A model generated the notes under the pieces. It had not been told where the DNA came from, did no database searches, and worked only from the letters and a program-made list of their open reading frames with translations. A stretch of 24,208 nt of DNA from an uncultured bacterium (GTDB taxonomy: Bacteria; Verrucomicrobiota; Lentisphaeria; Victivallales; UBA1829): NCBI GenBank assembly GCA_949290385.1, contig CASERY010000015.1, forward strand, positions 1-24,208. The letters run 5' to 3'. Each line of letters opens with the position of its first letter. Position 1 is the stretch's first letter. This document shows positions 9,888-10,796 of the stretch, piece by piece. A program made the translations under genes and the position numbers.

Positions 9888-10796
9888 TTATATGGTCCCA
9901 TTTCGATGACGGATGGATTTGAGAAACGTGGAGGGAGTAATCCCATATCGGATCTTGAACTGTCTGCGAAAATAATTTACAGAGTTGAAACCACAGGAAT
10001 TGCTGACTTCCTCAATGGTATATATTCCTTCTGCAAGCATTTTATAGGCTATCTAAAGCCTGTGCTGGATCAATATCTCAATTGGAGAACAATTCATAAG
10101 GGCCTTGAAACAGCGTCCAACTTCACTGCGGCTTACATTGGCTGTTCTGGCAAGATCTTTAAGAGAAATATGTCCGTTGTAATGAGTATAAATAAGATCA
10201 AGCATTTTTTGCAGACGTATTTGATTGATAAGTTGAATGCGATTTGATTTATACCGTGGTAAGATATTTATATTTAAATAAATATATTCAAAAATATAAC
10301 TTATATTTCTCTGGATCATCATTTCATAACATGGCGGCTGATTCCGGAAACAATGATAGATATCCTGTATAAGATTATTGATGTTTTTCAAACTTTCATT
10401 TTTATTTGAAAACACAACAAAAGGCAGATCATCACACTGTTGAAAGGGCATAATGTATTTTTTATATATTTGACTTCCTTCCGGAGCAATCAAACTTCCG
10501 GAGAAAACGATATTAGGCAATGGGTCAGCTGTATGACCGGAAATTTGTCTGATCCCGTGAAGTAGATTCCCATTGACAAAAATGCTGTCTCCGGCGTTGA
10601 GAATAATGTGTTTTTCACCGACCTGATAATCCAGGGTTTCGCTTTCTGCTGTTGCAATCTCAAATCCGGGATGCCAATGCAAAGGACCGTTCCATTGGGG
10701 TAAATTTGCCAACTCATCATGAAAGAATGAAATCGGAAAGGTCGTGGAATTGTAAGGAATTCGCTCTTTCAGTTGATAATCCATAGCTACAGACAT
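9888..10796 (-). CDS. AraC-family transcriptional regulator (N-terminal cupin sensor plus C-terminal double HTH). The full-length frame contains one in-frame TAG at 10055-10053, so the standard-code fragment is 10053..10796.
   Basis: The 247-aa ORF ends ...LKDLARTANVSRSEVGRCFKALMNCSPIEILIQHRL. This is followed by TAG, and the same frame continues IAYKMLAEGIYTIEEVSNSCGFNSVNYFRRQFKIRYGITPSTFLKSIRHRNGTI to TAA at 9890-9888. That second stretch is the canonical second AraC HTH (...GF.S.SYFSR.FKK..G.TPS.YR). The intact length of 302 aa is typical of the family. Confidence 0.7.

What the first reader, a model, noticed from the sequence alone, without database searches (positions are those of the whole stretch)
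9888..10796. AraC regulator: TAG sits between helix-turn-helix 1 and 2 at a position that is Gln/Glu/Asn in homologs
The sequence reads ...CSPIEILIQHRL-TAG-IAYKMLAEG.... This aligns with the AraC linker consensus ...Y(L)..RL-(Q/E/N)-KAK.LL. A one-base CAG-to-TAG or GAG-to-TAG change gives a full 302-aa protein. Under the standard code the second HTH is lost and the regulator would be non-functional. Yet the downstream 54 codons are perfectly conserved and remain open to a TAA.
Basis: partly seen in the sequence, partly recalled or inferred. Interest (0 to 1): 0.6.

Follow-up and report, generated by a model that had tools for sequence, protein, structure and literature searches.

The report
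Two amber-stopped genes: dead regulator–transporter pair
An AraC-type regulator gene and the transporter gene next to it each carry one premature TAG stop, caused by a single-base change and fixed in this gut Victivallales lineage, and the most likely reading is an ordinary, recently inactivated gene pair rather than an unusual genetic code.

Summary
The minus-strand AraC-family gene (10796..9888) has an in-frame TAG at 10055..10053 (codon 248), in the linker helix between the two helix-turn-helix motifs. Homologs have Gln there in 21 of 22 sequences, and the closest intact relatives use CAG, so it is a C>T nonsense change.

New findings:
- The MFS transporter gene immediately downstream (9734..8544) also has an in-frame TAG (9665..9663, codon 24). 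Relatives have TCG(Ser) or ACG(Thr) there.
- Seven independent strain contigs, 99.4-99.6% identical, keep both TAGs wherever they cover them. No intact allele of this lineage was found.
- One strain adds an A7>A8 frameshift in the MFS gene.
- None of the other ~16 genes has an internal TAG. TAG ends the flotillin-like gene and some genes in relatives.
- The two sites replace different amino acids. No suppressor tRNA, recoding RNA structure or Pyl-type context was seen.

Downstream dN/dS is not raised (0.08 versus 0.16 upstream) and the window branch is not accelerated, so the lesions are young.

Best explanation: a recently pseudogenised AraC–MFS cassette in a variable genome region (confidence 0.75). 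TAG suppression cannot be strictly excluded without the whole genome. A weak within-lineage excess of synonymous SNPs (6N:8S) remains unexplained.

The parts
9888..10796 (-). AraC/XylS-family regulator gene (cupin sensor domain plus two-HTH DNA-binding domain), 302 codons if the TAG is read through, interrupted at codon 248
   Evidence: Translation; Pfam Cupin_2, HTH_18 and HTH_AraC; 1132 homologs, the closest intact one 87% identical; alignment A1
10053..10055 (-). In-frame TAG (codon 248) in the linker helix between HTH1 and HTH2; the ancestral codon was CAG (Gln)
   Evidence: Gln in 21/22 homologs. CAG in L006, L007 and L009. Invariant in all six strain contigs that cover it
10056..10796 (-). 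5' part of the AraC gene, which is the only product under the standard code (247 aa: cupin, dimerisation region, HTH1)
   Evidence: ORF list. Product P0005 is recorded on 5 other contigs, with variant P0121 on a sixth
9888..10052 (-). 3' remnant of the AraC gene: 54 codons encoding the rest of the linker helix and HTH2, still open to a TAA
   Evidence: HTH_AraC match at residues 260-292. 48/54 identical to P0001. Within-lineage SNPs 2 nonsynonymous (G257E, V264A) and 1 synonymous
8544..9734 (-). MFS transporter gene, 396 codons if read through, interrupted at codon 24 in the first transmembrane segment. Gene callers report only a 364-aa ORF from an internal TTG at 9638
   Evidence: Frame translation; intact 396-417-aa orthologs directly downstream of AraC in L007, L009 and L019-L024; Pfam MFS_1
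9663..9665 (-). Second in-frame TAG (MFS codon 24); relatives have TCG (Ser) or ACG (Thr)
   Evidence: Invariant in all six strain contigs that cover it
9707..9713 (-). A7 homopolymer in MFS codons 8-10; it is A8 in strain contig L028, giving a frameshift upstream of the TAG (a third lesion, in one strain)

Best explanation
The AraC regulator gene and the MFS transporter gene it most likely controls form a two-gene cassette that was recently inactivated in this uncultured gut Victivallales lineage. There were two independent single-base nonsense mutations, CAG>TAG in the regulator and TCG>TAG in the transporter. Under the standard code the regulator is cut off after HTH1. It loses the second HTH that AraC/XylS proteins need for DNA binding (established family knowledge from MarA/Rob-type structures). 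The transporter terminates after 23 residues, inside its first transmembrane helix. Both lesions are fixed in every sampled strain. The rest of both genes still looks intact because too little time has passed for further decay. Shown: the lesions, their ancestral codons, their fixation, the absence of other internal TAGs, and the lack of acceleration. Inferred: that the products are non-functional, that AraC controls the MFS gene, and the order of the two hits.
For: Two lesions lie in adjacent, always-paired genes. AraC is followed by MFS in every intact relative, and both are interrupted here. Each TAG is one base from the codon in the closest intact relatives, and they replace different amino acids, Gln and Ser/Thr. 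A single reassigned meaning for TAG would not predict that. Only these 2 of about 18 genes have an internal TAG. TAG ends the flotillin-like gene here and 1-3 long ORFs per locus in relatives. A third, strain-specific lesion (A7>A8 frameshift) lies in the MFS 5' end in L028. Both TAGs are fixed in 7 strain contigs from 7 assemblies, and no intact allele above 90% identity turned up in a 5.8-billion-protein search. No tRNA-CUA occurs in the window or in 32 related loci. No unusual RNA structure follows either TAG (z = +0.27 and +0.76), and Rfam finds only tRNA-Pro. The cassette lies in a variable region: homology to other Victivallales stops at the cassette edges, and LacI-orthologous loci in sister species lack it. 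The lack of between-species acceleration fits a young lesion.
Against: Within the TAG-carrying lineage, SNPs in the unbiased parts of the cassette are 6 nonsynonymous to 8 synonymous. That is no different from intact neighbours (14:27, Fisher p=0.75) and marginally below the neutral expectation of 68-77% nonsynonymous (binomial p=0.007-0.05, depending on transition bias). Apart from L028 there are no indels in 2.1 kb of cassette, while the intergenic DNA holds several. This hints at continued constraint. However, the counts are tiny, four of the SNPs cluster in 25 bp as one probable recombination tract, and the three SNPs between the two TAGs are 2N:1S. The rest of the genome could not be examined for a suppressor tRNA.
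Confidence: 0.75

Rival explanations
1. TAG is read through in this organism by an amber suppressor tRNA, a pyrrolysine-type system or efficient near-cognate readthrough, so full-length AraC and MFS proteins are still made, perhaps only under certain conditions.
For: Two TAGs and no TAA or TGA interrupt the cassette. Both are retained in all strains. The within-lineage N:S ratio resembles that of functional neighbours. The AraC TAG replaces Gln, the residue a supE-type suppressor or near-cognate tRNA-Gln would insert. TAG is a rare terminator here, ending 1 of about 18 genes.
Against: No other gene in 24 kb has an internal TAG. The second TAG replaces Ser/Thr, not Gln. Neither gene is a Pyl-type methyltransferase. 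TAG ends the flotillin-like gene, whose tail is already as long as its homologs' tails, and TAG ends genes in relatives. No tRNA-CUA was found in any sequence in hand. No downstream RNA structure was found. L028 has a frameshift that readthrough could not rescue. The searched literature links neither Pyl nor recoding to Victivallales.
Confidence: 0.1
2. The truncated products are themselves functional. A 247-aa AraC fragment (sensor, dimerisation region and HTH1) would act as a ligand-binding or dominant-negative partner of paralogous regulators. An N-terminally shortened MFS protein would be made by re-initiation at the TTG 27 nt after the TAG.
For: The 247-aa ORF is identical in 5 further assemblies with only synonymous differences (4S:0N; one further strain has N175H). 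MFS codons downstream of the TAG show 4N:7S. The L028 frameshift lies upstream of the putative restart and would be irrelevant to it.
Against: The 4S:0N count is biased, because the contigs were retrieved by exact match to that protein. There is no Shine-Dalgarno sequence before the TTG, whereas the native ATG has AAGGAG. In L028 the shifted frame runs past the TTG. A restart product would lack transmembrane helix 1. Termination in the linker helix would leave HTH1 without its partner. No such truncated form appears among the 120 best-scoring of 1132 homologs.
Confidence: 0.08
3. Loss of the cassette was positively selected, for example because the transporter imports a toxic compound or the pathway became costly. 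The double-TAG haplotype then spread through the population by recombination.
For: The same two lesions are fixed across strains that differ by about 0.5% and show recombination-like SNP sharing. The SNPs between the two TAGs are 2N:1S, while those further away look selection-filtered (4N:7S and 1N:4S). That pattern is expected if flanking variation pre-dates the sweep.
Against: Counts are too small to separate this from drift. One knockout would suffice, so two hits argue more for sequential decay. The substrate is unknown, since no NCBIfam equivalog came near its cutoff. This is a variant of the best explanation (both genes non-functional), not a different mechanism.
Confidence: 0.07

Closest known systems
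AraC/XylS-family sugar-type regulators (cupin N-terminal domain plus two-HTH C-terminal domain, e.g. AraC, RhaS, MelR), typically paired with a transporter gene
   Same: Cupin_2 and AraC_binding domains at the N-terminus and HTH_18/HTH_AraC at the C-terminus. Weak matches to the AraC, RhaS, MelR and ChbR models. Always followed by an MFS gene in relatives. The sister cassette lies beside GH2/GH42 glycosidase genes.
   Different: The coding sequence is cut by a TAG before HTH2. No NCBIfam equivalog cutoff is approached (best 58 bits against a 425-bit cutoff), so neither the ligand nor the regulon can be named.
Young nonsense-mutation pseudogenes, as described in host-adapted bacteria (a single point lesion in an otherwise intact gene); stated from general knowledge
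   Same: Single-base lesions relative to intact relatives. The remainder of each ORF is intact. There is no between-species acceleration. A functionally linked pair is hit together. A further strain-specific frameshift is present.
   Different: Relaxed selection has not been shown within the lineage (6N:8S). The organism is an uncultured gut commensal, and nothing is known about genome-wide pseudogene load.
Amber (TAG) recoding systems: pyrrolysine insertion, and TAG-to-Gln recoding in some gut phages (general knowledge; no Victivallales case found)
   Same: In-frame TAG within a conserved domain, with the downstream sequence conserved. One of the two sites is a Gln position.
   Different: Only two adjacent genes are affected. 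The sites correspond to different amino acids. TAG still ends genes. No tRNA-CUA, pyl genes or methyltransferase context is visible.

Membership tests
AraC/XylS family transcription regulator | C-terminal DNA-binding domain of about 100 aa with two helix-turn-helix motifs (Pfam HTH_18 / HTH_AraC) | tested here: met
   At the sequence level, HTH_18 matches residues 215-293 at E=2e-19 (70.1 bits, cutoff 33.6) once the TAG is masked. The domain aligns to solved AraC-family DNA-binding domains.
AraC/XylS family transcription regulator | The encoded product contains both HTH motifs, meaning an uninterrupted ORF under the standard code | tested here: not met
   TAG at codon 248 ends the product after HTH1. 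The precomputed Pfam entry for the 247-aa product lists Cupin_2 only.
AraC/XylS family transcription regulator | N-terminal ligand-binding/dimerisation domain of the cupin type (sugar-regulator subgroup) | tested here: met
   Cupin_2 at E=1.9e-6, 27.9 bits against a 27.2-bit cutoff. Homologs are annotated with AraC_binding PF02311.
Major facilitator superfamily transporter | MFS_1 fold spanning about 12 transmembrane segments in one ORF | tested here: not met
   MFS_1 matches (E=2.3e-22), but the ORF is broken at codon 24. Intact orthologs are 396-417 aa, against the 364-aa residual ORF.
Pseudogene (recent, by point lesion) | Premature stop or frameshift relative to intact orthologs, present in the real DNA rather than an assembly error | tested here: met
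   Two TAGs against CAG and TCG/ACG in relatives. They are reproduced in 7 independent strain contigs.
Pseudogene (recent, by point lesion) | Relaxed purifying selection or accumulation of further lesions after the first hit | tested here: inconclusive
   A further frameshift occurs in one strain, and the AraC 3' remnant has 2N:1S. Overall, though, the cassette's 6N:8S does not differ from its neighbours, and there is no branch acceleration.
Pyrrolysine (Pyl) decoding of TAG | pylT (tRNA-CUA) and pylS/B/C/D genes in the genome | not testable with these tools
   Only 24 kb of the genome is available. No tRNA-CUA was found in the window or in 32 related loci.
Pyrrolysine (Pyl) decoding of TAG | In-frame TAG in methylamine methyltransferase genes (mtmB/mtbB/mttB) | tested here: not met
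   The TAG-containing genes are an AraC regulator and an MFS transporter. No methyltransferase genes occur in the window.
Genome-wide TAG-to-amino-acid reassignment (e.g. TAG=Gln) | In-frame TAGs spread over many genes, consistently at positions of one amino acid in homologs | tested here: not met
   2 of about 18 genes are affected and they are adjacent. One site is Gln and the other Ser/Thr.
Genome-wide TAG-to-amino-acid reassignment (e.g. TAG=Gln) | TAG not used as a terminator | tested here: inconclusive
   The flotillin-like gene ends at TAG, with a TGA 10 codons later. Homolog C-terminal tails are non-homologous but not longer. TAG ends ORFs in related loci.

The most novel reading that the evidence does not exclude
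The two TAGs act as a conditional switch. The AraC–MFS cassette would be silent under normal decoding. It would be expressed only when an amber suppressor tRNA is present, either one encoded elsewhere in this Victivallales genome or one brought in by a TAG-recoded (TAG=Gln) gut phage. In the regulator that would restore the native Gln248 exactly. This would be a chromosomal bacterial gene pair kept under selection despite in-frame amber codons.
Probability: 0.04. Interest if true: 0.8.

Novelty: already known. Interest (0 to 1): 0.13.

Why it matters
As found, it matters little. It is an example of a regulator–transporter unit knocked out by point mutations in an uncultured gut Victivallales lineage, useful mainly for annotation: both genes should be flagged as pseudogenes, not as a 247-aa cupin protein and a 364-aa MFS protein. 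It also shows why a conserved sequence downstream of a stop does not by itself indicate recoding, since a young lesion looks the same. Only if the unlikely suppression reading were true would it matter more, as a case of amber readthrough in a phylum where none is known.

Tried and rejected
1. Sequencing or assembly error: rejected. The same TAGs occur in 7 independent strain contigs.
2. Old pseudogene: rejected. There is no branch acceleration and downstream dN/dS is not raised.
3. Genome-wide TAG reassignment: not supported.
4. Recoding RNA element after the TAGs: none found. Fold z-scores are +0.27 and +0.76, and Rfam finds only tRNA-Pro.
5. Suppressor tRNA nearby: none found.
6. An intact allele of the same lineage was sought three ways, and none was found:
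   - The protein search returned nothing between 100% and 87% identity.
   - Cluster listing returned only further truncated forms, plus intact MFS proteins of the sister lineage at about 90% identity.
   - Two JGI metagenome scans with NAG and TNG patterns returned 0 hits.
7. Orthologous locus by flanks: LacI orthologs in sister species lack the cassette, so no positional ortholog exists for comparison.
8. Flotillin-like gene's C-terminus as a test of TAG termination: inconclusive, because the tails are not homologous.
9. Apparent tRNA-Pro anticodon switch (CGG versus GGG) between lineages: rejected. They are different isoacceptor genes.
10. Exact-product look-ups for the M32 peptidase and the 364-aa MFS ORF found nothing on record.
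11. Literature searches for Pyl or stop-codon recoding in Lentisphaerae/Victivallales gave nothing relevant.
12. Promoter and terminator consensus scans were at background level.

Full report
**1. Checking the observation**

The TAG occupies 10055..10053.
- With the stop masked, the protein has an N-terminal Cupin_2 domain. An HTH_18 domain (E=2e-19) runs from residue 215 to 293, straight across the TAG, and HTH_AraC covers 260-292. This is one AraC/XylS-type gene interrupted in frame, not two chance ORFs.
- A database search gave 1132 homologs. Among the 120 best hits listed, every one apart from the window's own 247-aa product is 292-306 aa, the closest 87% identical.
- In a 23-sequence alignment the TAG column is Gln in 21 homologs and Arg in one. 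All family-invariant residues downstream of the TAG are retained in the window.
- Alignment to the solved AdpA DNA-binding domain places the TAG in the helix linking HTH1 and HTH2.
- The three closest intact relatives with DNA available all have CAG at this codon, so the lesion is a single C>T transition.

**2. The neighbouring gene**

- In every intact relative the AraC gene is followed, about 120-140 bp downstream, by an MFS transporter gene of 396-417 codons.
- In the window that gene is called only as a 364-aa ORF starting at a TTG. Translating upstream shows the native start (ATG 9734..9732, preceded by AAGGAG) and a second in-frame TAG at 9665..9663, codon 24...GFVTQAI*ANFTPLL.
- Relatives have TCG (Ser) or ACG (Thr) at this codon. 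The likely change is TCG>TAG, again one base.
- When the window is rescanned with TAG treated as sense, these are the only two real genes with an internal TAG. The other roughly 16 have none.

**3. How widespread the lesions are**

- The exact 247-aa product is recorded on five other contigs from five assemblies. A one-residue variant (N175H) is on a sixth, and a strain contig carrying the truncated MFS ORF comes from a seventh.
- These contigs are 99.4-99.6% identical to the window and differ among themselves. Both TAG codons are unchanged wherever they are covered.
- No intact allele of this lineage was found. The protein search shows a gap from 100% to 87% identity, and two JGI metagenome scans allowing either allele found nothing.
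- One strain (L028) carries an extra A in the A7 run at 9707..9713, which frameshifts the MFS gene between its ATG and the TAG.

**4. Age and selection**

- I polarised differences between the window and its closest intact relative (L006) using two outgroups. The window branch is not accelerated: AraC has 13 nonsynonymous and 19 synonymous changes against 21 and 21 on the intact branch, and MFS has 9 and 22 against 13 and 14.
- Nei-Gojobori dN/dS for window versus L006 is 0.16 upstream and 0.08 downstream of the AraC TAG, inside the range for intact-intact pairs.
- That result is dominated by history before the lesion. It only shows that the lesion is young relative to about 13% nucleotide divergence.
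- Within the TAG-carrying lineage, SNP counts are AraC 3' remnant 2N:1S, MFS downstream of its TAG 4N:7S, and AraC 5' part 1N:4S. The last is biased, because those contigs were retrieved by exact protein match.
- The unbiased 6N:8S does not differ from neighbouring genes (14N:27S, Fisher p=0.75). It is marginally below neutral expectation (binomial p=0.007-0.05).
- I treat this as an unresolved weak hint of constraint. The numbers are tiny, several SNPs cluster as a probable recombination tract, and the three SNPs between the two TAGs are mostly nonsynonymous.

**5. Tests for recoding**

- TAG ends the flotillin-like gene at 3121..3123, with a TGA ten codons later. Its homologs' C-terminal tails are not homologous and are not longer, so nothing suggests readthrough there, though the test is weak.
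- TAG terminates one called gene (the L009 MFS ortholog) and one to three long ORFs per locus in related Victivallales loci.
- The only tRNA in the window is tRNA-Pro(CGG). No tRNA with a CUA anticodon occurs in 32 related loci.
- The 109 nt beginning just upstream of each TAG fold no better than shuffled controls.
- The two TAGs replace different amino acids. Neither gene resembles a Pyl-dependent methyltransferase.
- Literature searches found nothing linking Victivallales or Lentisphaerae to pyrrolysine or stop-codon recoding. The single apparent hit only lists a co-assembled Victivallales bin.

**6. Genomic setting**

- The relatives are gut Victivallales/Lentisphaeria MAGs, for example an uncultured Victivallis sp..
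- Similarity to them stops at the cassette borders, about 8504..11007, and none of the flanking proteins matches.
- The closest intact cassette lies beside GntR, GH2 and GH42/CBM9 genes. It is followed by a different tRNA-Pro isoacceptor, and in one contig by an integrase. It co-occurs with the TAG lineage in three samples, so whether it belongs to a sister species or is a paralog in the same genome remains open.
- LacI, the window's neighbour of AraC, has orthologs in sister species that keep their divergent oxidoreductase/esterase operon. On the other side they carry GntR, GDPD or GH42 genes instead of the cassette.
- The cassette therefore sits in a variable region, where gene loss is unsurprising.

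**7. Conclusion**

The simplest account of all results is a recently and jointly inactivated regulator–transporter cassette: two young nonsense pseudogenes fixed in this lineage, with a third lesion appearing in one strain.

- Shown: the lesions, their ancestral codons, their fixation, their restriction to this gene pair, and the absence of local recoding signals.
- Inferred: loss of function. It rests on the family's known need for both HTH motifs and on the position of the MFS stop in transmembrane helix 1.
- Residual alternatives: amber suppression by something encoded elsewhere in the genome (about 0.1), functional truncated or restart products (about 0.08), or positively selected loss (a variant of the main reading).

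None of these can be settled without the whole genome or expression data. The finding is real but ordinary, and the main practical outcome is an annotation correction.

Noticed in passing
window 8544..9734 (minus strand), TAG at 9663..9665: The MFS transporter gene directly downstream of the AraC gene has its own in-frame TAG at codon 24, where relatives have Ser or Thr. Gene callers report it as a 364-aa ORF from an internal TTG. This became central to the interpretation.
   Followed up: yes
L028:330-345 (corresponds to window 9707..9713): One strain contig (Logan ERR14721045) has A8 instead of A7, which frameshifts the MFS gene upstream of its TAG. It could be a real third lesion or a homopolymer assembly error. 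Read-level validation was not possible.
   Followed up: partly
window 2122..2417 (within the flotillin-like/Band_7 gene 1426..3123): A 66-bp (22-aa) tandem repeat, 4.5 copies at 89% match, lies inside the flotillin-like gene. A strain variant of the protein (P0250, 543 aa) is exactly one repeat unit shorter, so copy number varies among strains.
   Followed up: partly
window 8006..8084 (+), SNP at 8014: A tRNA-Pro(CGG) lies just beyond the cassette. The window has C at tRNA position 9, where three strain contigs and other tRNA-Pro genes have A. The intact sister cassette is also followed by a tRNA-Pro, but a different isoacceptor (GGG) with different stems, and in L019 by a phage-type integrase. 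This suggests tRNA-Pro-adjacent plasticity.
   Followed up: partly
window 11515..17237 compared with L029-L035: The LacI-controlled divergent operon is shorter in the window (esterase/beta-lactamase-like, an unannotated 309-aa ORF, GFO/IDH/MocA C-terminal-type, DHquinase-like) than in sister species. Those have an extra 394-aa GFO/IDH/MocA gene, two SDRs and two Zn-ADHs. The 309-aa ORF at 13996..14925 has no Pfam or NCBIfam match.
   Followed up: no
window 10797..11514 and 7750..8543: Two unusually long non-coding stretches (about 720 and 790 bp) flank the cassette. They hold the highest SNP and indel density among strains. No Rfam family other than the tRNA was found, and promoter/terminator consensus hits were not above background.
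   Followed up: partly
L009:2488-3741: The MFS ortholog in this relative has lost the usual stop and runs 21 residues longer, ending at a TAG. This shows that C-terminal stop turnover occurs in the family.
   Followed up: no
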